NCBI GenBank assembly: GCA_000004985.1
Contig: GG738874.1
Length of the DNA: 64,000 nucleotides
Strand: one strand, 5' to 3'
Source of the DNA: Naegleria gruberi
Taxonomy: Eukaryota
Shown here: positions 1-38,003 of the stretch, piece by piece
How the letters are laid out: each line of letters opens with the position of its first letter
How positions within the stretch are numbered: position 1 is the first letter of the stretch
The notes under the pieces: generated by a model
What the model was told of the DNA's origin: nothing
The model's input: the letters and a program-made list of their open reading frames with translations, nothing else
Database searches by the model: none
Made by a program: the position numbers and the translations under genes

Positions 1-812
1 AGAAATGGCTCCACTCTGTTGTCATTGACATTAATGGAAATTTTGATCGTTTCATTACTGATATTCATCACCCGAATCATTCCTTGTTGTGTTTTAGTCC
101 AAGAGCTCTCAAATTTCACACTGAAAACAATGAAGCTGTTATCAAAAGATATCATCACAAGACAGGAGATCAATGGATTCATCCACAGCATGGTGTTTTA
201 TTCGAAGGAGGGTATTTAAGTAATTCTTCAGTTCTGTATCCTCCAGTTGAGTTATTTAATCCAACTGGATTTACTGTATTATTGAGGGCATTTGCTGAGT
301 CAACTGATAGAGGAGTAATAATCATGTTTGGACGAGGATACAGATGGTTTGGTATTGATCCATTTGGAATTAGTTTGAGCAATGGTGAAAAACATTTCGA
401 GTTTGCAAATCAATTGAAATTAAGACAGTGGAATGATGTGTGGGTTTCGTATAATAATGTACAATCTCCTGGCACATTTAATGAATCATGTCGTGTCTTT
501 ACTCACAAGAATTCGAATACAAAGAAGGAAATATTTTGCATTGTGAATGGAAATGAATACCAATTTGAAGTTCCAATCGATAATAGGGTTCTTTCTCTAA
601 CAGATAATTATTATATAGAAGATGAAATGGGAATGGAATTTATTGATTATTCATGTGCTAATTGCTTTACAGGGTTTTTCTCCAGTTTAGTTTTATTCAA
701 TCAAAGTTGTAATAGTTTTGATGACTTGAAATTGGTTGCCTCAAACTTTTTGGAAAATCATTCCAAACCAACTGAAACCTATCAAGAAGTATTAAAAGAT
801 AAATCCAACTAA
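1..812 (+). CDS. 5'-partial CDS with a ConA-like/LamG-like or pentraxin-like beta-sandwich domain; the reading frame stays open to the window edge (the ORF track starts at a TTG at 84 only because no ATG exists)
   Basis: Frame 3 has no stop from nt 3 to the TAA at 810-812. The translation (...VLFEGGYLSNSSVLYPPVELFNPTGFTVLLRAFAESTDRGVIIMFGRGYRWFGIDPFGISLSNGEKHFEFANQLKLRQWNDVWVSYNN...) has the alternating hydrophobic pattern of LamG/pentraxin sandwiches. The N-terminus lies upstream of the window. Confidence 0.45.
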   Translation, partial: KWLHSVVIDINGNFDRFITDIHHPNHSLLCFSPRALKFHTENNEAVIKRYHHKTGDQWIHPQHGVLFEGGYLSNSSVLYPPVELFNPTGFTVLLRAFAESTDRGVIIMFGRGYRWFGIDPFGISLSNGEKHFEFANQLKLRQWNDVWVSYNNVQSPGTFNESCRVFTHKNSNTKKEIFCIVNGNEYQFEVPIDNRVLSLTDNYYIEDEMGMEFIDYSCANCFTGFFSSLVLFNQSCNSFDDLKLVASNFLENHSKPTETYQEVLKDKSN

Positions 813-863: not shown

Positions 864-1352
864 TTACCAAAGTCCTTCCGAGTGGAATACCAGTAAAAAC
901 ACTCCACCAATTCCGTATGCATTAATTTCATATTCAGAACCTCCAATATGACATTCGTAATATCTATGATATCTGAAAGCTTGTAATCTTCCAACCTTTT
1001 CACATAATTTCTCTAATTTCTTCATCATTGGCTTATGTTCTTCCGGATAATTAAGTGCTTGACGGTCACTCATTGGTTTATCTTTTTTCATTCCTTCCAT
1101 CCGTGCAATTGTTTCAGTATTCAAAAGTTGTGGAACTTGATGCTGGGGATGACAATAAAGTCGAGTCTCAAGTTTTGACATGTAATCAACTGTTCGATAG
1201 CATGGATTCATCTGTTGAATACTCCACAAATAATTCATTAATTCATTGATTCGTATTGTGTGTAGTTGATGGGCTTGTTGTTGTCGGAATTTTCTAATCA
1301 AAAGTGGAGAAGATTGTAAATCATTGAAAATCAGAACAACACATGATGACAT
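864..1352 (-). CDS. hypothetical protein (162 aa), function not recognised
   Basis: ATG-initiated ORF on the minus strand with host-like codon usage, convergent with the upstream gene. No recognisable motif. Confidence 0.4.
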   Translation of the reverse strand: MSSCVVLIFNDLQSSPLLIRKFRQQQAHQLHTIRINELMNYLWSIQQMNPCYRTVDYMSKLETRLYCHPQHQVPQLLNTETIARMEGMKKDKPMSDRQALNYPEEHKPMMKKLEKLCEKVGRLQAFRYHRYYECHIGGSEYEINAYGIGGVFLLVFHSEGLW

Positions 1353-1442
1353 TTTTATGATCTTGTTTTAACTCTTTCGAAAACACAAAACGTTCAATTT
1401 TGACGCTTAAGAAAACAATTTCTTGAGAATCTTTATTTTTTA

Positions 1443-4400
1443 TTAAAGAATGAAAGAAATAAACAATAAGGCAATAGCCAAGATTAAATTGAAAAGAGGA
1501 GTAGTTAAAGGAGAGTTGTTAATTCTTGCTGATTGTTGGGGAATGGTGATTGAACTGGATACTGAAATCAGTTTTTCACAATTGGTTCCAATGAAACCAA
1601 TTGAACATTTGCATGTATCTGTTGAAATGCATTGACCATTTCCTGAACAAACATTTGAAGTATCATTTGACAATTTTCCATAACATTGAATGAGTTTACA
1701 TTCAGGCCCATACCAATCCTTATCACATTTGCACAAGTTAAAATCCATACATTGCCCATGTCCAGAACAAACATTTGGCGTGTCATTTGACAATTTTCCA
1801 AAACATTGAATGAGTTCACAATCAGGGCCATACCAATCCTTATTGCATTGACATGTATCTGTTGAAATACATTGACCATGTCCAGAACAAACATTTGAGG
1901 TATCTGACAATTTTCCAAAACATTGAATAAGTTTACAATCAGGGCCATACCAATCCTTATTGCATTGACATGTATCTGTTGAAATACATTGCCCATTTCC
2001 TGAACAAACATTTGACGTATCATTTGACAATTTTCCAAAACATTGAAATAGCTTACAATCAGGCCCATACCAATCCTTATCACATTTACACAAGTTAAAA
2101 TCCATACATTGCCCATGTCCAGAACAACCCGATGAATTAGAGATACCAAAGCAGATAGGAGTATTGCATGAAGAACCAACCCAAGTCGAATTACATTCAC
2201 ACAAATCTTTTCCGATACATTGACCATGAGAATTGCAAGTGAGTGGATCATTACTTTGAATTCCAAAACAAGAGAAGTATTCACAATTGGCTCCACTAAA
2301 ACCATTATCACAAGTACACTTTTCATAATCTAAACATTTACCCCTCGATTGACAAACAGCAGAATCATTACTTAACAAACCATTACATGTGGTAATGTTG
2401 CAAGTTTCTCCAATCCAACCAATTTCACATTCACACAAATTGACATCAACACAAGCACCTTGGGATGGTCCACCACAAGAATTATTACCAAACTTTCCAT
2501 AACAGATTGGTGTGCATATTAAGGAATTTTCACTCAGACGAAAACCATCTTCTTCACAGTATGGAACTGCCACCCTAACCAAGCCATTACGAAAGATACC
2601 AGTATCTGAATATATTAAATTTCCTTGTTCATCAATGAAGATAGAGTCTGGGCATGAAACAATAGTTTCATTTCCTTTCACATTGTCTCTCATCTCAAAA
2701 CCTGTCTGTCCATTACCAATAATTGTTGAGATATTTCCATCCAATGCTGAAATCTTTCTTATAGCATGGGCATCACAATCAGGAAAAATTACATCACCAA
2801 CTTTGGTTGTAATAACAGATGCAGGATTAATAATAGATGCCAAAAGAGCAGAACCACCATCTCCAGTTGATAGCACAATTCCATTTCCTGTAACAGCATG
2901 AATGATACCGTCTTTGCTTATTCTTCTAATTCTGTTATTTCCTATATCAGTGAAATAAATATCTCCATCCACACTCACTGTAATACCATATGGATTATTG
3001 AGTTTTGCCTTAATTGCCTCAATTTCATCATTGTTATAACCAGCATATATACCACCAGCAATAGTAGAAATAATTCCTGTATCATAAGAAATCTTTCTAA
3101 TATTATTAGCATAACAAGAATCTGTAAAATAAATGTCACCTCTCCATGATACTACCAATCTGTTTGGACATAAATAGGCTTCAGATGCCAATCCACCATC
3201 GCCCAAACCACCAGCTAGAGTACTAATAATTCCATTGGTAGATACTGTTCTGATATAAGCTCTGTCAATTATATATAAATCTCCATTTGGTCCAACCTTT
3301 GAGAATGATGGAACTACACTAGTCATGTTGGCAAGAACATCATTTTCGATATCAGTAGTATTTCCGTTTCCAGCAATAGTTGAAATAACACCATTAGAAA
3401 TCTTTCTTAATCTAGAATTATCTGAAATGTAAATGTCACCATTTTGATCTACTGAAACACTTGTTGGCTTATTGAGTTGTGCATCAGTTGCAAGAATATC
3501 ATCTCCATTGTAACCTTCAACTCCAGTACCACAAATAATTGAATTTTGTAAAGTGGAAAGTGTAATATTGTTCAAAGTGGAATCTGATAGTAATACTAAA
3601 AGATACAATCCATCATTTGTAAGTGCAACATCTAAAGGAGATGCTACATTTTGTACAATGTCAATTATGCCACTTGTCAAATTAACAACTCTAATTGCAT
3701 TATTACCATTACAAGCAACATATAACAATTCTTCATCAGAAGAGAAAGCCATACCATTAGGATTTGAAATTGCTGCCTCGATAGCATTACCTCCATCTCC
3801 ACTATAATCATCAACCCCAGTTCCACAAATTGTTGTGATATTTCCATTGAGTGATATCTTTTGAACTCGATGAGTATTTGTGGAAAAGTAAATTTCACCC
3901 ATCTTGCTAACAAGAACTCTAACTGGATTACCTATCATTGAATCAATAGCTCTTACGTTTTCTCCACTGTATCCTGCAACACCAGGTTTACCAGCAATGG
4001 TTGTTATAATTCCCAAAGTTGAAATCTTTCTAATACATGAGTTTAAACTGTCAGCAATAATCATTTCACTAGTGCTTGGTAAAAAGTCAATTCCAGTTGC
4101 TCTACTGATAACTGAATATTTGGCATTGTATCCATCACCTCCAAATTGACCATTGGTTCCAGCAACTCTTATCAATGTGCCATTCCAAAATAGTTTGTAA
4201 ATTGAATTACTGAATGAAACAAATAACTCTTTTGTAATTGGTGAAACGGAAAGTCCAATAATGCTCTGGATTGATTCGAGCGGATTAATAACGTTAGGGA
4301 CAATAGTAGAGTCATCTAGACGGTTACCGTTACCTGCAATAGTTGAAACAATTTGATTCTTGTCAACCTTTCTAATTCTGCAATCATGTGAAATATATGT

Positions 4401-5618
4401 AATGCCATCAATTGAAACAACTTGACTAATATAGCCCAAAGCTGCTTTTGATGCTGGCAACCCATCTCCTCCATATACATTTGTATTACCAATTACTGTT
4501 TCAATAATTCCAGTTTGTTTTGAAATTTTACGTATCTTCAAATTTCCAGTGTCAGTAACATAAACATCTCCATTTTTAGAAACTGAGATTCCTGTTGGAT
4601 AAGCAAATTTGGCATTGATTGCGGGACCACCATCACCATAATTACCACTATCCATACTTCCACCAATTGTAGAAATGTAACCGCTGCTATTGACCATTCT
4701 AATAACGTTATTATTATCAATAATGTATAATGTACCATCAGGAGTGGAAACGACACCAGTTGGAAAATTCAATGCTGCATTGGTTGCCAAGCCTCCATCA
4801 CCAGAGTATCCTACATCTCCATTACCTGCGATTGTTGAAATAATTGCAGTGCTGCCATCAATCTTTCTAATTCTATGATTAAGTGAATCACAAAAGTAAA
4901 TGTCACCATTAGTGGAATTGACAAATAATCCTGTTGGTGTGTTTATCCTGGCAGTGAGTGCTGGTCTATTATCACCTCCAAAATTATTGATACCATTACC
5001 ACAGATTGTTACAACTGCACCATTTGAGATCTTTCTAATTCTGTGATTATTCCTATCAGCAAAGATTACATCAGAATTTATCAAACCAATACCAAAAGGA
5101 CGTGAAACTTTTGATAACTTAGCTTGTCCATCATTAAATCCTGAAGAACCAGGAATGCCAGCAATTACACTTATCTTTCCACTCTTCATGTCAATTTTTC
5201 TCACCAAATCATTGTAATAATCTGAAAAGTAAATATCACCAGTTTCTTTTGATACTACAATGCCTCTAGGTTCATTAATTTGAGCAAGCAGAGCCAATTG
5301 ATTTGCGCCACCATCACTATAACTACCTGGTAATTCACCTGTACCAGCAATCGCTTTTATCACATTACCAGATGTTGCTTTAATGGTATTAGCATCTGTG
5401 AAAACTAGTTCATCTTGTTCATTGAAGAATAATGCCAAGGGACTGTCGAGGGAAAGAGATGTCAAGTTATAACCATCACCCAGTAAGTTTCCACCTGCAA
5501 ATGTACTGGTTGTGTATTTCACAGGTTTCAAGTTGACCGTTGTCTTGCACAACACCATGTTGTTGGTTAACAACAACAATATTAAACAAACAAAGACATT
5601 GAACCAGAGTGCTGTCAT
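1443..5618 (-). CDS. secreted, probably GPI-anchored surface protein with about 16-18 NHL-type beta-propeller repeats followed by about 9 tenascin-type EGF repeats (1391 aa, intronless)
   Basis: ATG at 5618. N-terminal signal peptide MTALWFNVFVCLILLLLTNNMVLC. Repeated ...GNG..GYSGDGG.A..A.LN.P.G...d..G.lYiaD..N..IRki blades (NHL/YD-like). C-terminal Cys-rich units C.G....d...C.G.G.C.....C.C...W.G..C...C (EGF). Ser-rich stalk plus terminal hydrophobic tail LFNLILAIALLFISFIL immediately before the stop, typical of a GPI signal. Confidence 0.8.
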   Translation of the reverse strand: MTALWFNVFVCLILLLLTNNMVLCKTTVNLKPVKYTTSTFAGGNLLGDGYNLTSLSLDSPLALFFNEQDELVFTDANTIKATSGNVIKAIAGTGELPGSYSDGGANQLALLAQINEPRGIVVSKETGDIYFSDYYNDLVRKIDMKSGKISVIAGIPGSSGFNDGQAKLSKVSRPFGIGLINSDVIFADRNNHRIRKISNGAVVTICGNGINNFGGDNRPALTARINTPTGLFVNSTNGDIYFCDSLNHRIRKIDGSTAIISTIAGNGDVGYSGDGGLATNAALNFPTGVVSTPDGTLYIIDNNNVIRMVNSSGYISTIGGSMDSGNYGDGGPAINAKFAYPTGISVSKNGDVYVTDTGNLKIRKISKQTGIIETVIGNTNVYGGDGLPASKAALGYISQVVSIDGITYISHDCRIRKVDKNQIVSTIAGNGNRLDDSTIVPNVINPLESIQSIIGLSVSPITKELFVSFSNSIYKLFWNGTLIRVAGTNGQFGGDGYNAKYSVISRATGIDFLPSTSEMIIADSLNSCIRKISTLGIITTIAGKPGVAGYSGENVRAIDSMIGNPVRVLVSKMGEIYFSTNTHRVQKISLNGNITTICGTGVDDYSGDGGNAIEAAISNPNGMAFSSDEELLYVACNGNNAIRVVNLTSGIIDIVQNVASPLDVALTNDGLYLLVLLSDSTLNNITLSTLQNSIICGTGVEGYNGDDILATDAQLNKPTSVSVDQNGDIYISDNSRLRKISNGVISTIAGNGNTTDIENDVLANMTSVVPSFSKVGPNGDLYIIDRAYIRTVSTNGIISTLAGGLGDGGLASEAYLCPNRLVVSWRGDIYFTDSCYANNIRKISYDTGIISTIAGGIYAGYNNDEIEAIKAKLNNPYGITVSVDGDIYFTDIGNNRIRRISKDGIIHAVTGNGIVLSTGDGGSALLASIINPASVITTKVGDVIFPDCDAHAIRKISALDGNISTIIGNGQTGFEMRDNVKGNETIVSCPDSIFIDEQGNLIYSDTGIFRNGLVRVAVPYCEEDGFRLSENSLICTPICYGKFGNNSCGGPSQGACVDVNLCECEIGWIGETCNITTCNGLLSNDSAVCQSRGKCLDYEKCTCDNGFSGANCEYFSCFGIQSNDPLTCNSHGQCIGKDLCECNSTWVGSSCNTPICFGISNSSGCSGHGQCMDFNLCKCDKDWYGPDCKLFQCFGKLSNDTSNVCSGNGQCISTDTCQCNKDWYGPDCKLIQCFGKLSDTSNVCSGHGQCISTDTCQCNKDWYGPDCELIQCFGKLSNDTPNVCSGHGQCMDFNLCKCDKDWYGPECKLIQCYGKLSNDTSNVCSGNGQCISTDTCKCSIGFIGTNCEKLISVSSSITIPQQSARINNSPLTTPLFNLILAIALLFISFIL
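1650..2160 (-). repeat. coding tandem repeat: 5-6 near-identical 123-bp (41-aa) EGF units inside the NHL/EGF gene
   Basis: The DNA unit ...ccaatccttatcacatttgcacaagttaaaatccatacattgcccatgtccagaacaaacatttg...caattttccaaaacattgaa... recurs head-to-tail with roughly 90% or higher nucleotide identity. It encodes CFGKLSNDTSNVCSG(N/H)GQCISTDTCQCNKDWYGPDCKLIQ. One copy lacks one codon (KLSDTSNV). Confidence 0.85.
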
Positions 5619-5846: not shown

Positions 5847-7329
5847 CTAATAAAAGGGTGGAGGAAGAATTAAGAATAGCCACTGAATGAATTTTGAGTT
5901 TGAGATATTCCACGGATGATGGTGGTTCTTGTTCAATAAATGCAAGATATTCACATTGGGAAAAAGTAGTGACATTTTTGAATAGGTTTCCTTTCCATCT
6001 TGAAGTATGATCAATTCTGACACATTTGGATTGGAATTAGGATTGTCTGGTATTTCTATTTCCGACATCCAGAATACAGTCTTTAAATTTTTACATGATG
6101 GTAAGGTTGCAATATTATTTGAATTGACATCAATGGCTTCCACAGAGTTGACAAAGTGTTTAACAATATTCCTTGGGGGATCGGTATTTTTTTCTCCAAG
6201 ATCTCCCCAATCTTTAAGATTTGGGGCAAGAGTTTGTAAAGAATTAATTAATTTTTCAAATTGTTCATCAGTGAATTCATATGATGGACCAATATCAACA
6301 AATTCCAAGTTAGGATTTGGTTTTCCTCCAAAATAGATATCTTCTTCTTGTCTTGAATATTCCCCTTCATACCACATTCTTCGAGCTGTGAAACTTTTCA
6401 ATTTTGGAAAGTCTCCCAGTCTTTTCAATATCGCACCAGAGATAAATGAAACAGGTTGTACATCTATTTCTTCAATGTTTGATTGTTTTTCCAAGAATTT
6501 TCCAAGGCCTTCATCAGTAATATCCAATTCTAATTGACCTAAACTATTATCACTATTGATAGAAAGTGTTTTCATTCCACTACCTCCTCCCACTGGAATG
6601 AAAACTTCTTGTTTCAAATTGAGAACCAGTGTTTCTAATTTTCTAGTCTTGGTTAAAATTTTGAAAAGCTTATTCTTTGTGAGAGGTATGTCGTCAAGTT
6701 CCAATTCTTTCAAGTTATAACCCAAAGGTTCATCTTTAATTGTTTTAATTATTCTTGTGGAAGTATCTGAGCTAGTATATGAATTGAATAAATCATCATC
6801 TGTAATTTTAATAGGAAGAGTCTCTACTTGCATTTCAAGTATATATTCTTCATCACTCCTAATATCCAAAAATCCATACACTATTCTAAAATCCATTCTT
6901 TCAAATTTGAGACTGTTTGTTATATCAGTAATTGTAAAAGAGAGCTCTGTTTTCCTTTTCAATTTCCTTCAATAAAACCTCAAGCTGACTCTTCTATCCA
7001 AATACCAGAAAACTTTTGTCTATTTTCATATAAGTTTTAATATTCTAGAAAACAAACCTCAACATATTCACCAGTGATTTTTTCTCAACTCTTGGGTTAT
7101 TCAATGTTGGTTTCTTGGAAAACCCTACACACAGCTGTGTATTTACATGCTCGACTATCCATTCATAATTTGCCTTTGATGTCATGGCAAGCATTAAAAC
7201 ACCTCCGACTGGCAAATATTGTATAATCACAGACCATTCATCTCTTGAAAGATTGGTTATTGAGTAATTTGTTTTACATGATTCGGAAAGTTGTTGTTGA
7301 TCATCAGATTTGATTTTCCCGCTCATCAA
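5847..7329 (-). CDS. F-box protein with a leucine-rich-repeat-like C-terminal region. Two exons: F-box exon 7058..7329, then LRR-like exon 5847..6966
   Basis: Exon 1 (ATG at 7329) encodes the F-box-like ...DEWSVIIQYLPVGGVLMLAMTSKANYEWIV. The GTTTGT donor after ...NMLR and the acceptor ...tattgaag|g restore the frame into the 371-aa ORF (KLKRKTELSFTITD...), which has LxxLxL-rich repeats. Predicted intron about 6967-7057 (91 nt). The join is inferred, not proven. Confidence 0.45.
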
Positions 7330-17199: not shown

Positions 17200-17991
17200 N
17201 NNNNNNNNNNNNNNNNNNNNNNNNNNNNNNNNNNNNNNNNNNNNNNNNNNNNNNNNNNNNNNNNNNNNNNNNNNNNNNNNNNNNNNNNNNNNNNNNNNNN
17301 NNNNNNNNNNNNNNNNNNNNNNNNNNNNNNNNNNNNNNNNNNNNNNNNNNNNNNNNNNNNNNNNNNNNNNNNNNNNNNNNNNNNNNNNNNNNNNNNNNNN
17401 NNNNNNNNNNNNNNNNNNNNNNNNNNNNNNNNNNNNNNNNNNNNNNNNNNNNNNNNNNNNNNNNNNNNNNNNNNNNNNNNNNNNNNNNNNNNNNNNNNNN
17501 NNNNNNNNNNNNNNNNNNNNNNNNNNNNNNNNNNNNNNNNNNNNNNNNNNNNNNNNNNNNNNNNNNNNNNNNNNNNNNNNNNNNNNNNNNNNNNNNNNNN
17601 NNNNNNNNNNNNNNNNNNNNNNNNNNNNNNNNNNNNNNNNNNNNNNNNNNNNNNNNNNNNNNNNNNNNNNNNNNNNNNNNNNNNNNNNNNNNNNNNNNNN
17701 NNNNNNNNNNNNNNNNNNNNNNNNNNNNNNNNNNNNNNNNNNNNNNNNNNNNNNNNNNNNNNNNNNNNNNNNNNNNNNNNNNNNNNNNNNNNNNNNNNNN
17801 NNNNNNNNNNNNNNNNNNNNNNNNNNNNNNNNNNNNNNNNNNNNNNNNNNNNNNNNNNNNNNNNNNNNNNNNNNNNNNNNNNNNNNNNNNNNNNNNNNNN
17901 NNNNNNNNNNNNNNNNNNNNNNNNNNNNNNNNNNNNNNNNNNNNNNNNNNNNNNNNNNNNNNNNNNNNNNNNNNNNNNNNNNNNNNNNNNN
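17200..17991. other. assembly gap (792 N); it truncates the 3' ends of two convergent genes
   Basis: Uninterrupted run of n characters from 17200 to 17991. Confidence 1.
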
Positions 17992-18464
17992 ATTTCATTT
18001 TCCGATTTCTTCTTGTATACCTTTGATGGAAGACCAATGACAGTTTCCTTTTCCTTATTCCACACTCTGAATTTGCTAAATACTTCTGGATTGCACAAAT
18101 CAGGCATTTGAAGCCCAATTCCTGATGTATATAATGCTCGCAGTGATTCCTTTTGCAATCTCAAGTTTGGTGTAAGTTTTGGATGTTTTTTATCAAATTC
18201 TTTATCGGAATGTTCCAAATATTTATCAATCAATTCAATCATTTCCTCCTCAGTACAACAAGTTTTCTTTACTCTAATATCTGCACCGAAAATTTGTTCG
18301 TGAATATAAAGATATCTCTTGAATGTTGGCACAACTTTAGTATCTCTGATTTGTTTTTGTTCCTTCTTTTTAAAGTCGTGAATACCCTGCTTCTTCATAT
18401 CGATAGCCTTTCGGGATTTTGGATGAACTGGTTTGGTGGTTGTGGCGTTTGCTCCTTTGGTCAT
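17992..18464 (-). CDS. TMA16: TMA16 (translation machinery-associated protein 16) homolog. The N-terminal ~158 aa are present; the C-terminus is lost in the gap
   Basis: ATG at 18464 gives MTKGANATTTKPVHPKSRKAIDMKKQGIHDFKKKEQKQI...CTEEEMIELIDKYLEHSDKEFDKK...GIGLQMPDLCNPEVFSKFRVWNKEKETVIGLPSK. This matches the TMA16 pattern (HP.SRKA...ELIERYL...G.GL.IPD..N...K.FREW) recalled from memory. The ORF runs into the gap. Confidence 0.55.
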
Positions 18465-28008: not shown

Positions 28009-31000
28009 ATGGTTCAATGTGATTGTGGAGAGGAGGCTGCAAGTTTGATTGTTCGGAAAGAAGGACCAAACAAGGGACGTTCTTTTCATTCATGTGCTTC
28101 GAGAAGTTGTCAGTTTTTCAAGTGGGGTTCTGCAGAAAGTCAGCAACAGCAACAACCTTCATCATCAATCGGAAGAGTTTCATCTGCAAGTAATAATAAT
28201 AATAACAATGGAAAATCAACAACAATTAATAGGAATAATACAAGTAATCATACTCGTAATACAAACAGTATTGATGGCGATAATGATGATGATTTTGCAA
28301 CAGTGGATTTTTCTGCACCACCTTCTAGGAGAATTGTTGTCTCTAATAATTCATCAGCCAACAAAACAACAACAACAAATACAACAACAACCTCCAAATC
28401 AACCAATAATAGGCAAGCAGGGACATCATCCTCAACAAGTACTAATTCTTCATCACAAAAATCAAGTCGAGTAGATGATGTTTCGAGTGATGGGAAAACC
28501 ATTCCGAAATGTAAACATGGATTGGATACAATTCTGTTAAAGGTGAAGAAAGAAGGACCAAACCAAGGAAAGTTGTTTTGGTCTTGTACTGAGAAGGAAG
28601 ACTCTTGTCAATTCTTTGAATGGTTGAAAGGAAACGAAAATGATTATCTTCATCTATTGAATGTAAATCCAAACAAGAAGAAGAAGACAAAAGAATCCAG
28701 TAGTGATGAAGGTAGTAGCTCATCTGGCTCTGGAGAAAAGAAAAAATCATCCAACCATATTGAATTTGAAATTTGTACATTAGAGGTAAATGGTGACCAT
28801 GAATTGACAGTGAGAGAATTTGAAGATGATAATGCTCCAAACTCAGAAGGAATTACAGAAGATTATTCAAGGATGATGCAAAATTCTCTCGCTCTTAGAG
28901 TGTTAGTCTCTAAACGAATTGCTTCAAAAGTTGCTGAAGCTTTGAATGAATTCAATTGTTTGAATAAGCTTAAGGAAACAGAAAATGAAGACTCTGAGGA
29001 CGAAAAAAAGAAAGTTGATCTCTATTTTGAATATAAGAACTATTCAGCTATTTTGAAAAAAATCAAAAAACATGAACTTGCCTCCAAATGTAATATTGTG
29101 GAACTTCCTGATTTTGTTATTCGATTGTTAAAGAATTACTCTGAATTGACAGATAAGAATAGCAATATTGACCCTTGGAAACGTATTCCAAAACAATTAC
29201 AAAACTCATTCCTTCCCTTCCAAAAAATTGGTGTCGAGTTTGGAATTAAAAAAGAAGGCCGTGTTTTGATATCAGATGAAATGGGTCTTGGTAAAACCAT
29301 TCAATGCATTGCCATTGCTACACATTTCTCAAATGATTGGCCATTGTGGATTGTATGTCCAGGATCTTTAAAAGCTAATTGGAAAAAGGAAATTTTAAAG
29401 TGGATGGGAGGGCAAACTGTTAAAGTGGATGGTTCTGATGAATTTATAACTTCCATGCAAATTAATGTCATTGACAATAGCAGTCAAGTCAATAAGGGGT
29501 TTTCCCTTATCAATATTATTTCCTATGATTTGTTAGCGAAGGACAATATTATTTCATTGGTTGAAAAGGAATTTGAAAAGAAAAAGAAAGGTGTCATGGT
29601 TTGTGATGAGTCTCACTTGTTAAAGAGTTTATCTAGCAAGAGATCACAATCATTGGTACCACTTTTAGAGCAAGCTACTAGAACTATCCTTGCAAGTGGT
29701 ACAAGTTGCATGTCGAGACCAATTGAGCTTTTTTCTCAAATTAAGGCCATCATTGGAAAGAACAGTATCAAGAAGCTTGAATTTGGCTATAGATATTGTG
29801 GTCTTACTCAAAAACCAAAATATGACTCGGATTACAAAGGATCTAGTAGATTATCTGAGCTATATTGCCTACTTTCCAATACAATAATGATAAGAAGATT
29901 GAAAAGAGATGTTTTAACAGAGTTACCACCTAAAAGGAGGTCCAAGTACTATTTACATGTAAAGGAAGAAGATCTCAAACAAATTAATGGCATTGGAGGT
30001 GATTCTAAGAAAAAGTTCTACCAAAAAGATTGGGGTAAACTCCAGAAAGATAAGGATGTTATTGCTAAATATGTGAAAACTGCTGAGGCTAAAATAGATG
30101 GAATCAGGTCTTACCTCAGAAAAATTATTCCCAAGAAGGAGAAGTTTCTCATATTTGCTCACCATAGGCGTGTGATGGATGCAATAGAAGAAACTGTGAA
30201 ACAAGAGCTGTCATATTTAACAAAATATAGTCACTCAAGTGTTAGTGATGATATTCTGGAGGAGGATATTTTCACTACTAAGGGCTCTACACATGACGAC
30301 ATTGAGGAATTTGAGGATGATGATGTAAAAACTTACGAGTATATTAGAATAGATGGCGAGACAAAGGACAGAGAGGGATTAGCTCATCACTTCAGATCAA
30401 CTGAGAATTGTCTCGTTGCCATCCTATCTATGAATGTAGCAGGTTGTGGTCTTAACTTTGTGCCATGCTCTACTGTTGTATTTGCAGAACTGTGTTGGAA
30501 TCCAGCCTTACTCAATCAATGTGAAGATCGTTGTCACAGAATTGGACAAAAAGGAGCTTTTGTGGATATCACGTACTTATTGGCAAAGAAAACCTTGGAC
30601 GATTTCATGTGGGATTTATTAACCAAGAAGGCTGACATTACAGACCTTGCATTAAATGGTCAAAAAGAAGAGAAGTCATCTCACTTAACAAGAAGTGTGC
30701 AGGACATTACAACACCCAAAAAGAAGTCACTCTCCTTGGGGGGTAGTAGCTCAATAGAAAAGTATTTGAAACCCTCACCAACCACTTCAACAACCACAGT
30801 TACTGAATCCACAAGTTCATCACCTCCTAAGCTAGACGATTCTGTCATTATGTTAGATGATGACGATGATGATATTTCACTTAATTCAAATACAATCCAT
30901 TCCAAAAAGACAGATTCAAAAGAAGACAAATCATCATCCAGTAAGAAACGATCTTCCTCAACCATAACACCTCCTAACAATACCAAGAAGAAGCTTCTCT

Positions 31001-31047
31001 TCCCTACACAAAAGAACACCCTCTTCTCCTATTGTACAAAGAAGTAA
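28009..31047 (+). CDS. SNF2-family ATPase/helicase with two N-terminal GRF-type zinc fingers (1012 aa, intronless); SMARCAL1/ZRANB3-like subfamily is tentative
   Basis: GRF fingers CDCGEEAASLIVRKEGPNKGRSFHSCASRSCQFFKW and CKHGLDTILLKVKKEGPNQGKLFWSCTEKEDSCQFFEW. SNF2 motif I LISDEMGLGKTIQ, DESH box VCDESHLLKS, helicase-C motif VI ...QCEDRCHRIGQKGAFVDI. Long Asn/Thr/Ser low-complexity N-terminal stretches. Confidence 0.85.
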   Translation: MVQCDCGEEAASLIVRKEGPNKGRSFHSCASRSCQFFKWGSAESQQQQQPSSSIGRVSSASNNNNNNGKSTTINRNNTSNHTRNTNSIDGDNDDDFATVDFSAPPSRRIVVSNNSSANKTTTTNTTTTSKSTNNRQAGTSSSTSTNSSSQKSSRVDDVSSDGKTIPKCKHGLDTILLKVKKEGPNQGKLFWSCTEKEDSCQFFEWLKGNENDYLHLLNVNPNKKKKTKESSSDEGSSSSGSGEKKKSSNHIEFEICTLEVNGDHELTVREFEDDNAPNSEGITEDYSRMMQNSLALRVLVSKRIASKVAEALNEFNCLNKLKETENEDSEDEKKKVDLYFEYKNYSAILKKIKKHELASKCNIVELPDFVIRLLKNYSELTDKNSNIDPWKRIPKQLQNSFLPFQKIGVEFGIKKEGRVLISDEMGLGKTIQCIAIATHFSNDWPLWIVCPGSLKANWKKEILKWMGGQTVKVDGSDEFITSMQINVIDNSSQVNKGFSLINIISYDLLAKDNIISLVEKEFEKKKKGVMVCDESHLLKSLSSKRSQSLVPLLEQATRTILASGTSCMSRPIELFSQIKAIIGKNSIKKLEFGYRYCGLTQKPKYDSDYKGSSRLSELYCLLSNTIMIRRLKRDVLTELPPKRRSKYYLHVKEEDLKQINGIGGDSKKKFYQKDWGKLQKDKDVIAKYVKTAEAKIDGIRSYLRKIIPKKEKFLIFAHHRRVMDAIEETVKQELSYLTKYSHSSVSDDILEEDIFTTKGSTHDDIEEFEDDDVKTYEYIRIDGETKDREGLAHHFRSTENCLVAILSMNVAGCGLNFVPCSTVVFAELCWNPALLNQCEDRCHRIGQKGAFVDITYLLAKKTLDDFMWDLLTKKADITDLALNGQKEEKSSHLTRSVQDITTPKKKSLSLGGSSSIEKYLKPSPTTSTTTVTESTSSSPPKLDDSVIMLDDDDDDISLNSNTIHSKKTDSKEDKSSSSKKRSSSTITPPNNTKKKLLFPTQKNTLFSYCTKK

Positions 31048-34637: not shown

Positions 34638-37600
34638 TTACATTTGGTGGTTGTGAATAAACTCTTCCATGGATCTTTGATTTTCATCTCTTTGTGGAGC
34701 TTTGAGTTTGATAATCTTAACAAACTCTGGATCCTTATCGACAATGGAAACATCTTGTGGAGTAATGATAATGAGCTGTCTTGTTGGATGTTTGGCTTTA
34801 GCTGTTTTCAAAATCAAATCCATGGCAGTCTTTCTGTACATATTATCCATGAACACATCAAATTCGTCTACAGCTCTAAATGGAGTTTCAACAAGTTCCC
34901 AAATTGAAAGTAAAAAGCTCACAGTTGTGAAAGATTTTTCTCCACCAGACAAAGACTTGGCATCTTTAACAGTTACATGACTACCATGAGTAGCCATATG
35001 AATAATAAATTTAAGGTCTCCATCCTCAACTTCTATTTGCCCAGAGTGACCCTTTTGACTCATGTAACGACCAAAGAATTGAGATACAGTAGAAATAGCA
35101 GAGGATCTAATTGCCAGCATGGTTCTAGTTCTGGAATTAACACCCTCTTTGGCCATTTTAAGGGCATCACGGCAAACCTCTAAGTGTAGTTTCTTTTCGT
35201 CATATGTGCGTTTATAGTCAAGATAATCTTTCTTGACATCTGAAGCATTGATATTTCCAAGTCTTTGTTGTTCTCTATCTATCAACTTTTTAATTGCATC
35301 AATTCTATTTCCCAGTACTCTAGGATCTGCATTGGTTTCTATATATGGACAACCATCTGAAGCAGTATCATGACTTCGATCCATCAACTCCTTGCTTAAG
35401 GTCACTTCTCTTTCCTTCTTTTCTAGTTCTTGCCTGTAACTGAAAATCTCATTATCCATTGTACGACTATTACGATTCTCATCTTCAATTTGTTTCAAGA
35501 TGTTAAGTACCTCTCTATCACGGGTTTCTTTTTCTTGTTGTGCCTCCATAACACTTTGTCTGCTTTCTGCTGCTTGTTGGTTGAGTTCATTCAATTCAAT
35601 CTTTAAATCCTCCATTTTCTTCTCTTCCTCTTTAAGTCTTTCTCTATTAGAGGCAATCTTGTCTTGGCAAATTTTAATTTTACCCTCAAGCTCTTCAATA
35701 AACTGTTGATCGTTGTCTTCCTCATTTGCTATTTCATCGATATCCTTCTTTTTCTTGTTTATAACTACTTTCAGTGAATCGATTTTTTTTGAGGAAGTTT
35801 TAATGCTATCAGTCAACTTGGAAAGACTTTCATATAGCCTATCTGCTTCAGAACGGAGTCTTTTCTCTGTCACCTCTACTTCTTTAACCTTTTTTCTGAG
35901 TTCTTCGGCAGCTTTCACTCTTGCTTGAATTTCTTCTTCCACACTCTTAGTCCATAATTTACTTCTTGGAGCATTAGCAACATCTGTCACAGCACTTCCA
36001 CCTTTTCTAAAAACTCTTGTACCTGTAATGGTAATAGCCTCATATTGTGGGTATTGATCTATAAATGATTGTGCTTCTTTAAGATTTTGAATGAGCACAT
36101 TTCTTTCAACTCTAGACTGGTTAATAAGCATATTAATTAATGTTGATCTGAGAACCTCAGTATCATCATACTTCAAAGGAGTGCTCCTAAGTGCATTCAA
36201 ATCTACATCTAATGTATGATAAATAGTGGTATGACCGTGAGGGAGAACCTTACTTAAATCATAAACCGAGTTGGTATATTGCTGAATGATGTGCGTAAAT
36301 TTGACACCAGTTTTCTTCTTGATTCTGTTCAATTCTTCTCCGTCTTTGAAATTATCAACAATAAATCCATTTAAATTTTTGATAAGAAATTGCTCAATTG
36401 CAGCGGCCCAATCTAAATACTCTTCTTTAACGCTTAAAAGCAATCCCAAAGGTCCTATTGGCGGCTTAGAAAAATTCTTGCTCTTGCTTAGTTCAGAAAG
36501 GAAATTTTTCATTTGTGCTCCTCCCACCATTGCAAATTTATCAGTTCTACTTTGCTTGAGTTTACTCTCTTCATCTTGTAATTTTCTAATATCTTCCTCT
36601 ATACTGCCTCTTTCATGTCTTGTCTGATTTTGTTGAGTAGTCAATTTCTCCCTGTTGACCTTAATGCCTGTGGCTTCTTCTTCGTATTGTTTCTTATTTT
36701 CTTCTATTTTGTCGATATCTGATTGAATTTTATCTATTTCCTCCTGTTTGCTCTTGATAGCTGACTCTTTATCAGTCTTATTCTTTGAAAGTGTTTCATT
36801 TTTGTTTCTGTCGAAAAGTTGAATTTCTTGTTCCAGAGCAGTTATTTCTCTATTGATTTTTTGTCTAGTTTGCTGAGAATTTTTTGCTCTAGTTTCAATA
36901 TCCCTTTTCTTGTTAAGCACATTGCTAGCCTCTTGGTTTAGCAGGTAAATTTTTTTGCCAATACTTTCAATCTCTTCATCAATTTGGAACTTCCTAGTTG
37001 TTAACTCTGAAATCCTAGTCCCTGAAGATGAGTTTTTCTTCTCAATTAGTTCATCTAAACTTCTTTTAAGTGCATCTCTCAATTTGACCTCACCTTCATA
37101 CTGAACCCTGTTTTTATGGTAGATAGCCCAACCCCTTTCAGATTGTAAAGCAGTCATATCATTTCTAAGCTCATCTATCCTTGTTGTTTCTTTGTAAAGG
37201 TCTTCTCTTTTTTTTAATTCTTCTGTTGATTCTTGAAAAGCGCTTATTTTATCAGCATACATATCTTCCATAATCTTATTGTTCTTGTTTGCTTGAGCAA
37301 TATTTTCCTCCATATCTTTAATTTGAGTCGCACGCAGGAAAAATTGATATTTCTTGGCCTCAGAAGATCCGGCCAAAAATTCTCTACTGATATCTTGAGT
37401 CATGCAGGTGGTAGGATTTTCTATTTGAATATTGAAAGAGTGTAAAATGATTGCCAATTCCTTGCTAGATTTTGAAATGGTCTTTCCTTGACTATTTTGA
37501 ATTTTGAGAGTAGTGCTACCTGCCTTGGAAATACCCTTTACAATAATAATGGATCTTCCATATAGTTCTTTCTTGTATGCATCTCTTCCTTGATTTCTGA

Positions 37601-38003
37601 GTCTAATCATAATTTCAGCATGTTCTTTTCCTGACATGACTAGATCCTTAATGGAATTACCTCTGTTAGTATTCTTAGCCTTCGATCCAAGCCCAACTTG
37701 GATTGCTGTAAGAACAGCACTTTTACCACTACCGTTCTCACCGTGAATAATAGTTGTTCTGTCATGAAATTCCACTTTAAAGTTAGGGTGACACATAAAG
37801 TTCTTCAATTTAATTTCTTCAATAATACCTGCTTCAAGGTTTTTTCCATCTTCTGCATCAAAAGCAGTTTTATCTTTCCTTTTCTTACTTTTTTGTGTTA
37901 ATTTTGGTGCTTCTTCCTCATCCGATTCCTCTATTTGTGTATTTGGTATTTCCTCCTCTTCATCAGATTCAATTTCTTGTTGTCTTTTTCTCTTGCTTGT
38001 CAT
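34638..38003 (-). CDS. SMC6: SMC6 (structural maintenance of chromosomes protein 6), 1121 aa, intronless
   Basis: ATG 38003. Walker A IIHGENGSGKSAVLTAIQVGLG near the N-terminus, long coiled coils with a central hinge, and C-terminal signature/Walker B LSGGEKSFTTVSFLLSIWELVETPFRAVDEFDVFMD. N-terminal acidic/KRK-rich tail. Confidence 0.9.
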   Translation of the reverse strand: MTSKRKRQQEIESDEEEEIPNTQIEESDEEEAPKLTQKSKKRKDKTAFDAEDGKNLEAGIIEEIKLKNFMCHPNFKVEFHDRTTIIHGENGSGKSAVLTAIQVGLGSKAKNTNRGNSIKDLVMSGKEHAEIMIRLRNQGRDAYKKELYGRSIIIVKGISKAGSTTLKIQNSQGKTISKSSKELAIILHSFNIQIENPTTCMTQDISREFLAGSSEAKKYQFFLRATQIKDMEENIAQANKNNKIMEDMYADKISAFQESTEELKKREDLYKETTRIDELRNDMTALQSERGWAIYHKNRVQYEGEVKLRDALKRSLDELIEKKNSSSGTRISELTTRKFQIDEEIESIGKKIYLLNQEASNVLNKKRDIETRAKNSQQTRQKINREITALEQEIQLFDRNKNETLSKNKTDKESAIKSKQEEIDKIQSDIDKIEENKKQYEEEATGIKVNREKLTTQQNQTRHERGSIEEDIRKLQDEESKLKQSRTDKFAMVGGAQMKNFLSELSKSKNFSKPPIGPLGLLLSVKEEYLDWAAAIEQFLIKNLNGFIVDNFKDGEELNRIKKKTGVKFTHIIQQYTNSVYDLSKVLPHGHTTIYHTLDVDLNALRSTPLKYDDTEVLRSTLINMLINQSRVERNVLIQNLKEAQSFIDQYPQYEAITITGTRVFRKGGSAVTDVANAPRSKLWTKSVEEEIQARVKAAEELRKKVKEVEVTEKRLRSEADRLYESLSKLTDSIKTSSKKIDSLKVVINKKKKDIDEIANEEDNDQQFIEELEGKIKICQDKIASNRERLKEEEKKMEDLKIELNELNQQAAESRQSVMEAQQEKETRDREVLNILKQIEDENRNSRTMDNEIFSYRQELEKKEREVTLSKELMDRSHDTASDGCPYIETNADPRVLGNRIDAIKKLIDREQQRLGNINASDVKKDYLDYKRTYDEKKLHLEVCRDALKMAKEGVNSRTRTMLAIRSSAISTVSQFFGRYMSQKGHSGQIEVEDGDLKFIIHMATHGSHVTVKDAKSLSGGEKSFTTVSFLLSIWELVETPFRAVDEFDVFMDNMYRKTAMDLILKTAKAKHPTRQLIIITPQDVSIVDKDPEFVKIIKLKAPQRDENQRSMEEFIHNHQM

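What the first reader, a model, noticed from the sequence alone, without database searches (positions are those of the whole stretch)
1443..5618. GPI-anchored NHL-propeller/EGF giant whose EGF module is expanding by near-identical 123-bp tandem duplication
The domain combination is a signal peptide, about 16-18 NHL/YD-like blades, about 9 tenascin-type EGF units, a Ser-rich stalk and a GPI-type C-terminal signal. It is reminiscent of teneurin/tenascin-class adhesion molecules. Five or six of the EGF units are almost identical at the nucleotide level (period 123 bp, with one 120-bp variant). That implies very recent unequal crossing-over or concerted evolution. It also makes the copy number in this assembly unreliable. 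Such repeat-length polymorphism could tune surface adhesion.
Basis: partly seen in the sequence, partly recalled or inferred. Interest (0 to 1): 0.55.

Follow-up and report, generated by a model that had tools for sequence, protein, structure and literature searches.

The report
Naegleria NHL-propeller/EGF surface protein gene

Summary
The ORF at 1443-5618 (minus strand, 1391 aa) is real and belongs to Naegleria gruberi. It has a signal peptide, 18 NHL blades (enough for three six-bladed propellers), 8 six-cysteine EGF units, a short disordered Ser/Thr/Pro linker, and a hydrophobic end with no cytoplasmic tail, as in a GPI-attachment signal.

The repeat claim is only partly right. The period is 120 bp, with 117- and 111-bp variants, not 123. 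Only EGF5 and EGF6 are about 93% identical. A 164-nt tract is about 92% identical at a three-unit offset. Other pairs among EGF4-8 are 56-82% identical, and EGF1-3 about 55-60%. Synonymous divergence in the best tracts is 0.13-0.24, so the duplications are not very recent, and nothing suggests assembly collapse.

EGF4-8 are still a lineage-specific expansion inside this gene. Each is closer to another of the five than to any of 530 EGF units from relatives.

The public model (XP_002676110, 1218 aa) drops the signal peptide. It also splices EGF4-8 and the anchor signal out as a 1038-nt "intron", which is almost certainly an error.

The protein is not a teneurin or a tenascin. Its function, probably surface adhesion or recognition, is inferred only.

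The parts
1443..5618 (-). Complete single-exon CDS, 1391 aa plus the TAA stop at 1443-1445. Naegleria gruberi locus NAEGRDRAFT_49822, re-modelled here.
   Evidence: ORF list. It is 100% identical to P0001/XP_002676110.1 over aa 21-1146.
5547..5618 (-). Signal peptide, aa 1-24 (MTALWFNVFVCLILLLLTNNMVLC|KTT). It is absent from the public model, which starts at M21.
   Evidence: Hydrophobicity scan. P0001 aligns only from aa 21.
4491..5441 (-). NHL blades 1-6 (aa 60-376). Proposed first six-bladed propeller.
   Evidence: Blade motif segmentation, AF2 strands at pLDDT mostly above 90, Pfam TEN_NHL/NHL. The grouping into 6+6+6 is inferred.
3531..4430 (-). NHL blades 7-12 (aa 397-696). Proposed second propeller. 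It holds the most degenerate blades and a low-confidence loop at aa 433-450.
2568..3467 (-). NHL blades 13-18 (aa 718-1017). Proposed third propeller.
   Evidence: A stretch of about 350 residues of the model superposes on the six-bladed NHL propellers 6g7w and 7djj (TM 0.82 and 0.81, rmsd 2.6 and 3.0 A).
2505..2567 (-). NHL-to-EGF junction with two Cys (aa 1018-1038, PYCEEDGFRLSENSLICTPI). It is conserved in N. fowleri FDP41_011322.
   Evidence: BLASTP alignment to P0056.
2154..2504 (-). EGF1-EGF3 (aa 1039-1155), each 117 nt. These are old, diverged units, 53-63% nt identity to all others.
   Evidence: Cys pattern, identity matrix, Pfam EGF models and DUF7949.
1566..2153 (-). EGF4-EGF8 (aa 1156-1351; 111, 120, 117, 120 and 120 nt). 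This is the lineage-specific tandem expansion.
   Evidence: TRF, the repeat finder, identity matrix, alignment A1, nearest-neighbour test, AF2 pLDDT above 90.
1784..2015 (-). Most similar adjacent copies: 1901-2015 versus 1784-1898 (offset 117, 115 nt, 93.9%). This is EGF5/EGF6.
   Evidence: pS 0.13, pN 0.05.
1611..2131 (-). Three-unit-offset tract: 1968-2131 (3' half of EGF4 plus 5' half of EGF5) versus 1611-1774 (3' half of EGF7 plus 5' half of EGF8), about 92% over about 164 nt. It gives the array a mosaic pattern.
   Evidence: Family D2. pS 0.24, pN 0.05.
1497..1565 (-). Short Ser/Thr/Pro-rich linker (aa 1352-1374) holding the best omega-site candidate, N1367-N-S.
   Evidence: Composition. 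AF2 pLDDT is below 50 for aa 1357-1372. The omega site was assigned by rule of thumb only.
1446..1496 (-). C-terminal hydrophobic segment LFNLILAIALLFISFIL (aa 1375-1391). It runs to the last residue, so there is no cytoplasmic tail, as in a GPI-attachment signal.
   Evidence: Hydrophobicity. AF2 helix at aa 1375-1390.
1143..2180 (-). The 1038-nt GT..AG 'intron' of the public gene model. It removes the end of EGF3, EGF4-8, the linker, the anchor signal and the stop codon, and joins the gene to the downstream ORF 864-1352.
   Evidence: Tail of P0001 mapped to the window. The frame stays open for 245 codons past the 'donor' (P about 4e-7; 0 of 20000 shuffles).

Best explanation
The region is one intron-free protein-coding gene of the amoeboflagellate Naegleria gruberi. 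It encodes a secreted-pathway, heavily N-glycosylatable (20 sequons) cell-surface protein.

Shown:
- an N-terminal signal peptide;
- 18 NHL blades;
- a conserved Cys-containing junction;
- eight six-cysteine EGF modules that model as a confidently folded array;
- a disordered linker of about 20 residues;
- a 17-residue hydrophobic C-terminus with no cytoplasmic tail.

Inferred:
- The blades form three six-bladed propellers that act as the membrane-distal ligand-binding head.
- The disulfide-rich EGF array is a semi-rigid spacer that holds the head away from the membrane.
- The C-terminal signal is exchanged for a GPI anchor, most likely at N1367.
- The protein serves adhesion or recognition, of substrate, prey bacteria or other cells.

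The membrane-proximal five EGF units (EGF4-8) arose inside this gene by tandem duplication. They also show exchange of sub-unit tracts, by unequal crossing-over and/or gene conversion. One adjacent pair and one 164-nt tract at a three-unit offset remain about 92-94% identical. Since then the copies have accumulated mostly synonymous change, so they are maintained coding modules and not a very recent or ongoing burst.
For: - ORF and organism.
- Domains: Pfam TEN_NHL 198 bits, NHL 114 bits, EGF_Teneurin 119 bits and EGF_TEN 99 bits, all above their curated cut-offs.
- Blades: 15 strict plus 3 degenerate motif blades, and 18 groups of three or four strands in an AF2 model of mean pLDDT 84.9.
- Propeller fold: the model superposes on the six-bladed NHL propellers of NHLRC2 and SOQ1 with TM 0.81-0.82 and rmsd 2.6-3.0 A over about 355 columns.
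- EGF array: AF2 pLDDT 84.8, with eight repeated hairpin units above 90, a disordered linker and a terminal helix. Foldseek hits are DLL1, Jagged, Notch and integrin EGF arrays.
- Anchor and signal peptide: the only two hydrophobic segments are at the two termini.
- The same architecture recurs in relatives. P0079 has signal peptide, NHL, EGF and a hydrophobic C-end. N. gruberi P0109 and P0129 also end in a hydrophobic stretch without a tail.
- The junction and EGF1-4 are collinear with N. fowleri FDP41_011322.
- Expansion.
- Age and selection: pS 0.13 and 0.24 against pN 0.05.
- Coding status of EGF4-8: no stop in 245 codons, P about 4e-7.
Against: - No expression, localisation or binding data exist for this protein or any relative. 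The literature library holds nothing linking Naegleria to NHL, EGF or teneurin-like proteins.
- GPI attachment rests on sequence rules only. No dedicated predictor was available, and the N. gruberi GPI transamidase was not checked here.
- The 6+6+6 grouping of blades was not verified in three dimensions. pTM is 0.48, so inter-domain geometry is unreliable.
- The pS/pN figures rest on few substitutions (3-7.5 synonymous, 5-6.5 nonsynonymous).
- The public annotation disagrees about the 3' end of the gene.
Confidence: 0.62

Rival explanations
1. The public gene model is right. The protein ends after EGF3, and EGF4-8, the linker and the hydrophobic tail are intronic sequence spliced to the downstream ORF 864-1352. 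The product would be a 1218-aa protein without a signal peptide or membrane anchor.
For: GenBank/RefSeq carry this model (XP_002676110.1, D2VII7). The proposed intron has GT..AG ends.
Against: - The 'intron' keeps the reading frame open for 245 codons (P about 4e-7; 0 of 20000 shuffles).
- It encodes five EGF units with every cysteine in place, and these fold at pLDDT above 90.
- It shows pN below pS between copies.
- It ends in an anchor signal like those of relatives.
- The downstream ORF has no Pfam domain.
- The model's start at M21 discards the hydrophobic leader.
Confidence: 0.04
2. The protein is not GPI-anchored. The C-terminal hydrophobic stretch could be a true transmembrane anchor with no tail. 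Alternatively the protein could be released and built into an extracellular layer such as the cyst wall or a matrix.
For: AF2 models the last 16 residues as a helix. The N. fowleri relative P0056 has a classical transmembrane segment followed by a charged cytoplasmic tail, so the family uses more than one anchoring mode. No GPI predictor or experiment was available.
Against: - The hydrophobic run is only 17 residues, starts after a Pro, ends at the C-terminus and has no flanking basic residues.
- It is preceded at the usual distance (spacer of 5) by small residues N-N-S.
- The same layout recurs in P0109, P0129 and P0079.
Confidence: 0.22
3. The propellers are catalytic, of the lactonase or lyase type, as in SMP-30/gluconolactonase, Vgb lyase or PAL. 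The protein would then be a surface-displayed enzyme acting on bacterial or environmental small molecules, not an adhesin.
For: There are weak Pfam hits to SGL (40.8 bits against a cut-off of 26.3, but no single stretch is significant), Vgb_lyase, Arylesterase and Str_synth. Many bacterial homologues carry the automatic label 'sugar lactone lactonase YvrE'.
Against: - These hits are far weaker than the NHL/TEN_NHL hits, and none is supported by a single significant stretch. From general knowledge these are related six-bladed-propeller families, so weak cross-matches are expected.
- The closest solved relatives by sequence and fold are non-catalytic NHL domains: bacterial teneurin-like protein, teneurins, SOQ1 and NHLRC2.
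- Active-site residues were not examined.
Confidence: 0.08
4. The similar EGF units are an assembly artefact (collapse or mis-join), so the array in the window does not reflect the genome.
For: The window is a draft scaffold with at least one gap, at 17201-17992. Tandem repeats are a classic source of mis-assembly.
Against: - Copies differ by at least 6% even in the best tracts, and by 18-44% elsewhere. That is ample to place reads uniquely.
- The related block is about 590 bp and keeps a perfect reading frame and Cys pattern.
- The block contains no N run.
- The N. gruberi draft was Sanger-sequenced (own knowledge, not checked here), with reads comparable in length to the block.
Confidence: 0.04

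Closest known systems
Teneurins (metazoan) and bacterial teneurin-like proteins (e.g. Bacillus inaquosorum TLP, PDB 9IFO/9PT5; PMC13018210)
   Same: - The NHL blades give the best matches to solved structures: 9pt5_A E 7e-60 and teneurin-2 E 3e-28 by sequence, and 9ifo_A ranks first by Foldseek.
- The EGF units match Pfam EGF_Teneurin and EGF_TEN, and the teneurin-2 EGF region at E 3e-11.
- Like teneurins it has eight EGF units next to the membrane and NHL propeller(s) further out.
   Different: - It has no N-terminal intracellular domain and no type II transmembrane helix.
- It lacks the Cys-rich/TTR/FN-plug domains, the YD/RHS shell and the ABD/Tox-GHH domain (no such Pfam hits).
- It has 18 blades instead of one six-bladed propeller.
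- Domain order along the chain is reversed (NHL before EGF).
- All eight EGF units have six Cys, so there is no teneurin-style free cysteine for dimerisation.
- The anchor is at the C-terminus and of GPI type.
Uncharacterised Naegleria paralogues: N. fowleri FDP41_011322 (P0056), N. lovaniensis C9374_011613 and C9374_005899 (P0125, P0160), N. gruberi NAEGRDRAFT_53411 (P0109)
   Same: - They use the same blade type and the same EGF type.
- P0056 shares the exact NHL-to-EGF junction motif and collinear EGF1-4.
- P0109 has about 18 blades, a Ser/Thr stalk and a hydrophobic C-end.
   Different: - Identity is only 36-37%, and no one-to-one orthologue was found.
- P0056 has about 6 blades, many more EGF units, an extra domain and a classical transmembrane segment with a cytoplasmic tail.
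- P0109 has no EGF units.
Large bacterial NHL-repeat surface proteins (often auto-labelled 'sugar lactone lactonase YvrE')
   Same: They are the highest-scoring database relatives of the blade region: 28-35% identity over 60-74% of the query. Their blade consensus is nearly the same (GDGGPA..A.L..P.GVAVD..GN.YIAD..N.RIRKV).
   Different: They lack the eukaryotic signal peptide, EGF array and GPI-type end. They carry Ig, FN3, T9SS or other bacterial modules instead (Pfam columns).
LDL-receptor family ectodomains (LRP2/megalin, LRP4, LRP6): arrays of six-bladed propellers plus EGF modules
   Same: They are also multi-propeller plus EGF cell-surface receptors, and rank high in Foldseek for the propeller model (E 1e-28 to 1e-26).
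   Different: The blades are of YWTD type, not NHL, at 11-14% identity. Propellers alternate with single EGF modules instead of three contiguous propellers followed by an EGF array. They are transmembrane receptors with cytoplasmic tails.
Tenascins and other protist/animal EGF-array proteins (DLL/Jagged/Notch, MEGF10, 'ComC'-labelled proteins)
   Same: They also carry arrays of six-Cys EGF modules. Pfam EGF_2 scores 3e-30, and the EGF model matches DLL1, Jagged and Notch arrays.
   Different: There is no tenascin assembly domain, FN3 repeat or fibrinogen globe, and no DSL/C2 domain. The first inter-cysteine loop is longer (8-11 residues), giving 37-40-residue units.

Membership tests
NHL-repeat six-bladed beta-propeller proteins | Repeated NHL sequence motif recognised by the family HMM | tested here: met
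   Pfam NHL 1.3e-33 (113.7 bits, cut-off 20; 6 stretches). TEN_NHL 2.9e-58 (198 bits, cut-off 27.1; 12 stretches).
NHL-repeat six-bladed beta-propeller proteins | Four-stranded blades that close into a six-bladed propeller | tested here: met
   The AF2 model (pLDDT 84.9) has 18 groups of three or four strands. About 355 columns superpose on the NHLRC2 (6g7w) and SOQ1 (7djj) propellers at TM 0.82 and 0.81. That all 18 blades form three closed propellers is inferred, not seen directly.
EGF-like domain arrays | Six conserved cysteines per unit of about 30-40 residues, recognised by EGF HMMs, with the EGF fold | tested here: met
   Eight units with C-x8-11-C-x5-7-C-x5-C-x-C-x8-C spacing. EGF_Teneurin 1e-34, EGF_2 3e-30, EGF 1.4e-9. 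AF2 pLDDT is above 90 across the array. Foldseek matches DLL1, Jagged and Notch EGF arrays.
Teneurins | Type II membrane topology with an N-terminal intracellular domain | tested here: not met
   The N-terminus is a cleavable-type signal peptide. The only other hydrophobic segment is the extreme C-terminus. There is no Ten_N hit.
Teneurins | YD/RHS-repeat shell with FN-plug, plus C-terminal ABD/Tox-GHH | tested here: not met
   No RHS/YD, FN-plug, TTR or Tox-GHH family appears among the Pfam hits at E up to 1. The whole chain is accounted for by blades, EGF units and linker.
Teneurins | Eight EGF repeats, two of which lack a cysteine and give covalent side-by-side dimers (PMC3278476) | tested here: not met
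   The count is eight, but every unit has all six Cys.
Tenascins | N-terminal assembly domain, FN3 repeats and a C-terminal fibrinogen-related globe | tested here: not met
   No FN3 or fibrinogen_C hits.
GPI-anchored proteins | N-terminal signal peptide plus a C-terminal signal: small omega/omega+2 residues, a spacer of 5-10 residues, then 15-20 hydrophobic residues ending the protein | tested here: met
   Signal peptide at aa 1-24. N1367-N-S, then the spacer PLTTP, then 17 hydrophobic residues to the C-terminus. This is rule-of-thumb inspection only.
GPI-anchored proteins | A positive call by a trained predictor (big-PI, PredGPI, NetGPI), and biochemical proof (PI-PLC release, anchor mass spectrometry) | not testable with these tools
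   No GPI predictor or experimental data were available. One pangenome paper only mentions 'evidence of GPI-anchored proteins' in Naegleria (PMC9928731).
SMP-30/gluconolactonase/LRE-like and Vgb-lyase propeller enzymes | A family-specific HMM match with a contiguous significant domain, and catalytic metal-binding residues | tested here: inconclusive
   SGL scores 40.8 bits in total (cut-off 26.3) but with 0 individually significant stretches. Vgb_lyase scores 38.1 bits, below its cut-off of 50. Catalytic residues were not examined.

The most novel reading that the evidence does not exclude
Naegleria, a member of Discoba and very distant from animals, carries a family of surface proteins that pair NHL propellers with teneurin-type EGF arrays. 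The propellers are most similar to those of bacterial and teneurin-like proteins, and the layout is the same as in teneurins: EGF stalk near the membrane, propeller head further out. In this reading the NHL-plus-EGF pairing is not a choanoflagellate/metazoan invention. It is either older or repeatedly assembled from bacterial NHL modules in bacterivorous protists, perhaps for prey recognition. That would bear directly on the horizontal-transfer model for the origin of teneurins.
Probability: 0.1. Interest if true: 0.6.

Novelty: new member of a known kind. Interest (0 to 1): 0.3.

Why it matters
There are three practical points.

1. The public N. gruberi gene model for this locus is almost certainly wrong. 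It loses the signal peptide, five EGF units and the anchor signal, and fuses the gene to a neighbouring ORF. The protein would therefore be missed in any surfaceome, secretome or GPI-ome prediction.
2. It documents an uncharacterised Naegleria family of NHL-propeller/EGF surface proteins. The family includes members in the pathogen N. fowleri. These are plausible candidates for adhesion or prey/host recognition.
3. It is a small, clean example of an EGF stalk lengthened by intragenic duplication with mosaic exchange between units.

None of this overturns current understanding. NHL and EGF modules, GPI signals and exon-free repeat expansion are all well known.

Tried and rejected
- Exact-sequence look-ups of the full ORF product and of the public model in the contig index found nothing. 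No independent assembly could be compared.
- A protein search with the EGF/tail region found no relative above about 50% identity. A metagenome scan with the same region found no confirmed relative. Allelic repeat-number variation is therefore untestable here.
- Literature searches for Naegleria with NHL, EGF, teneurin or tenascin returned only conference abstract books or teneurin papers that do not mention Naegleria.
- Searches for GPI anchoring in Naegleria gave only indirect remarks.
- A search for N. gruberi intron statistics, to judge the 1038-nt 'intron', gave nothing usable. I relied on the open-frame statistics instead.
- Neighbouring large ORFs in the window are unrelated: SDR, SNF2/GRF, SMC-like, LRR and a kinase-decarboxylase fusion. 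This is therefore not a tandem gene cluster of the family.
- The 252-aa ORF at 1568-2326 (minus strand) is another frame of the repeat, and the 129-aa ORF at 2512-2901 (plus strand) lies antisense. Both were dismissed as by-products.
- Recent horizontal transfer of the NHL region from bacteria was considered and set aside. Bacterial hits score higher only because they have many blades, whereas Naegleria paralogues are more identical (36-37% against 28-35%).

Full report
**What is in the sequence.** The minus strand carries an uninterrupted ORF from 5618 to 1443, 1391 codons long, starting at the first ATG after an upstream stop. The best database match is a Naegleria gruberi "predicted protein" (EFC43366.1 / XP_002676110.1 / D2VII7, locus NAEGRDRAFT_49822). 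It is 100% identical over aa 21-1146. The window is therefore N. gruberi nuclear DNA (Discoba, Heterolobosea). Its GC content of about 33-35% is not unusual for such a genome.

**The public gene model is almost certainly wrong.** The deposited 1218-aa product starts at M21 and leaves the ORF after W1146, inside EGF3.
- Its last 92 residues map to a separate downstream ORF (864-1352, minus strand). The join uses a GT..AG "intron" spanning window 2180 to 1143, 1038 nt long.
- That "intron" contains 245 more in-frame codons with no stop. The chance expectation is about 4e-7 from the window's stop-triplet frequency, and 0 of 20,000 shuffles stayed open.
- Those codons encode five further EGF units with every cysteine in place. 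The units fold with pLDDT above 90 and show fewer nonsynonymous than synonymous differences between copies.
- The stretch ends in a membrane-anchor signal like those of relatives.
- The downstream ORF has no Pfam domain.
- Starting at M21 also deletes the hydrophobic core of the signal peptide.

**Anatomy.**
- *Signal peptide.* Residues 1-24 form a typical leader (MTALWFNVFVCLILLLLTNNMVLC|K).
- *Blades.* Residues about 60-1017 consist of 18 NHL blades. Fifteen match a strict "hydrophobic-Y/F-hydrophobic-x-D ... I-R-K-I" anchor spaced 51-61 residues apart. Three double-length intervals each hide a degenerate blade.
- *Pfam.* TEN_NHL scores 2.9e-58 in 12 stretches and NHL 1.3e-33, both far above their curated cut-offs.
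- *Propeller model.* An AlphaFold2 model of aa 25-1040, built on a 45-sequence alignment, has mean pLDDT 84.9 and 18 groups of three or four strands. Its pTM is 0.48, so the relative placement of domains is not reliable.
- *Fold match.* A stretch of about 355 columns superposes on the six-bladed NHL propellers of human NHLRC2 (6g7w, TM 0.82, rmsd 2.6 A) and plant SOQ1 (7djj, TM 0.81, rmsd 3.0 A). That is about a third of the query (TMq 0.29). Three six-bladed propellers is therefore the natural reading, but the 6+6+6 grouping is inferred.
- *Junction.* A two-cysteine junction (aa 1018-1038) leads into the EGF array.
- *EGF array.* There are eight units with six Cys each, at aa 1039-1351. They are supported by EGF_Teneurin 1e-34, EGF_2 3e-30 and EGF_TEN 5e-28. 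A second AF2 model has pLDDT 84.8, and its best structural matches are the EGF arrays of DLL1, Jagged, Notch and integrin beta.
- *C-terminus.* The "Ser-rich stalk" is only 27 residues (12 S, T or P) and is predicted disordered. The last 17 residues (LFNLILAIALLFISFIL) are hydrophobic and end the protein. With N1367-N-S as small omega residues and a five-residue spacer, this is the layout of a GPI-attachment signal. I could check this only by rule of thumb.
- *Glycosylation.* There are 20 N-x-S/T sequons.

**The repeat.** TRF reports period 120, 4.2 copies and 83% matches.
- Unit lengths are 117, 117, 117, 111, 120, 117, 120 and 120 nt. The "123 bp with one 120-bp variant" is therefore wrong.
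- Whole-unit nucleotide identity is 92.5% only for EGF5/EGF6. It is 56-82% for the other pairs among EGF4-8, and about 53-63% for EGF1-3 against everything.
- The longest high-identity ungapped tracts are 115 nt at 93.9% at a one-unit offset (1901-2015 versus 1784-1898) and about 164 nt at about 92% at a three-unit offset (1968-2131 versus 1611-1774). The latter is the 3' half of EGF4 plus the 5' half of EGF5, against the same parts of EGF7 and EGF8.
- The array is therefore a mosaic. This is what unequal crossing-over and/or gene conversion between units would produce.
- In these two best tracts the proportion of synonymous differences is 0.13 and 0.24, against 0.05 for nonsynonymous (small counts). 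The copies have been diverging under purifying selection for a considerable time. "Very recent" and "near-identical" are not justified.
- With at least 6% divergence and a related block of only about 590 bp, there is no particular reason to distrust the assembled copy number. The window's only N run is 11.6 kb away, at 17201-17992.

**The expansion itself is real.** Each of EGF4-8 has its nearest relative among the other four (0.70-0.93 aa identity). None is closer than 0.57 to any of 530 EGF units from 240 related proteins. EGF2 and EGF3 are at least as close to foreign units (0.54) as to their own neighbours (0.45-0.47). In five relatives examined, within-array unit identity never exceeds 0.74. 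The N. gruberi paralogue P0129 has its own three-unit block duplication.

**Relatives.** The blade region has thousands of relatives (6587 with E at most 1e-3 among the 8000 candidates scored).
- Most of the top-scoring ones are large proteins on contigs of up to several Mb. Those that carry names are bacterial (Bryobacterales, Verrucomicrobiota, Chloroflexi, Paenibacillus and others). They are 28-35% identical and share a nearly identical blade consensus.
- Naegleria paralogues are somewhat more identical: P0109 at 37% and N. fowleri P0056 at 36%. I therefore see no evidence for a recent transfer.
- The NHL-plus-EGF architecture recurs in N. fowleri (FDP41_011322), in N. lovaniensis (two proteins), and in unassigned assemblies: ERZ27315067 (two genes) and GCA_037189345.1.
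- The junction motif PYC..(D/N)G(F/Y)....NS..C.PICYG...N..CGGP.QG.C and EGF1-4 are collinear with the N. fowleri protein. The fusion therefore predates the split of these Naegleria species.
- Anchoring varies within the family. The present protein, P0109, P0129 and P0079 have GPI-type ends. P0056 has a classical transmembrane segment plus a tail.

**How it most likely works (inference).** The protein enters the secretory pathway and is glycosylated and disulfide-bonded. It is then attached to the outer leaflet by a GPI anchor. The EGF array acts as a semi-rigid spacer, and the three propellers form a distal binding head. The likely role is adhesion or recognition of substrate, prey bacteria or other cells.

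No experiment or paper bears on this. Rival readings each receive low to modest probability:
- a tail-less transmembrane or shed/wall protein;
- a surface-displayed lactonase- or lyase-type enzyme, suggested only by weak Pfam hits to SGL and Vgb_lyase with no significant single stretch;
- the public spliced model;
- an assembly artefact.

**Comparison with known families.**
- By sequence, the closest solved structures are the NHL domain of the Bacillus inaquosorum teneurin-like protein (9PT5/9IFO, E 7e-60; PMC13018210) and animal teneurins (E 3e-28 and weaker). SOQ1, NHLRC2 and the designed "Pizza" propellers follow.
- The EGF part matches the teneurin-2 EGF region (3e-11) and WIF-1.
- The resemblance to teneurins includes eight EGF units placed next to the membrane.
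- Every feature that defines a teneurin is absent or different: type II topology with an intracellular domain, FN-plug, YD shell, Tox-GHH, and cysteine-deficient EGF units for dimerisation (features as listed in PMC3278476 and PMC13018210).
- Tenascin features (FN3 repeats, fibrinogen globe) are also absent.
- It belongs with NHL-propeller and EGF-array proteins in general, and specifically with an uncharacterised Naegleria family.

**Verdict.** The "near-identical 123-bp, very recent, assembly-unreliable" part is not supported.

I rate novelty as a new member of a known kind and interest at 0.3. The most novel reading still open is that bacterivorous protists far from animals pair bacterial-type NHL propellers with teneurin-type EGF stalks, which would bear on the origin of teneurins. 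I give it about 0.1.

Noticed in passing
window 17201-17992: There is an assembly gap of 792 N, preceded by Asn-rich (AAT)n-like coding sequence. It explains the GC 0.207 bin and the spurious overlapping multi-frame 'ORFs' listed between 16594 and 18482.
   Followed up: yes
window 864-1352 (-) and 1143-2180: The public model XP_002676110.1 fuses the NHL/EGF gene to this 162-aa downstream ORF through a 1038-nt 'intron'. The downstream ORF has no Pfam domain and is probably a separate small gene, or not a gene at all.
   Followed up: partly
window 41584-44661 (-): A 1025-aa ORF combines an amino-acid-kinase domain with an Orn/DAP/Arg decarboxylase (N- and C-terminal domains). This looks like a kinase-decarboxylase fusion enzyme.
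   Followed up: no
window 28009-31047 (+) and 34638-38003 (-): The first ORF is an SNF2-family helicase with two N-terminal GRF zinc fingers. The second is a 1121-aa AAA_23/SMC_N (Rad50/SMC-like) ORF. Neither is related to the finding.
   Followed up: no
window 1568-2326 (-): This 252-aa ORF lies in another frame of the EGF repeat. It stays open only because the repeat has few stops in that frame (3 stops in the frame-1 scan of the segment). It is not a gene.
   Followed up: yes
P0129 (N. gruberi, 550 aa; not in the window): This is another N. gruberi protein with a signal peptide, an EGF array and a hydrophobic C-end. It has its own three-unit block duplication (units 2/5 at 72% and 3/6 at 74% aa identity). 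Block duplication of EGF units therefore recurs in this family.
   Followed up: partly
L002 3001-9328 (ENA ERZ27315067 contig k141_1699405): An unassigned metagenome contig carries a 1776-aa NHL+EGF gene followed directly by a 319-aa EGF-only gene on the same strand. A second contig from the same assembly (L001) carries the 1155-aa protein P0079 with a signal peptide, NHL, EGF and a hydrophobic tail. The organism is unknown.
   Followed up: no
window 5847-6962 (-), 84-812 (+), 53402-55417 (-), 55877-57616 (+), 58012-62409 (+): Several long ORFs, including one of 1465 aa, have no Pfam match at the thresholds used. They may be lineage-specific Naegleria genes.
   Followed up: no
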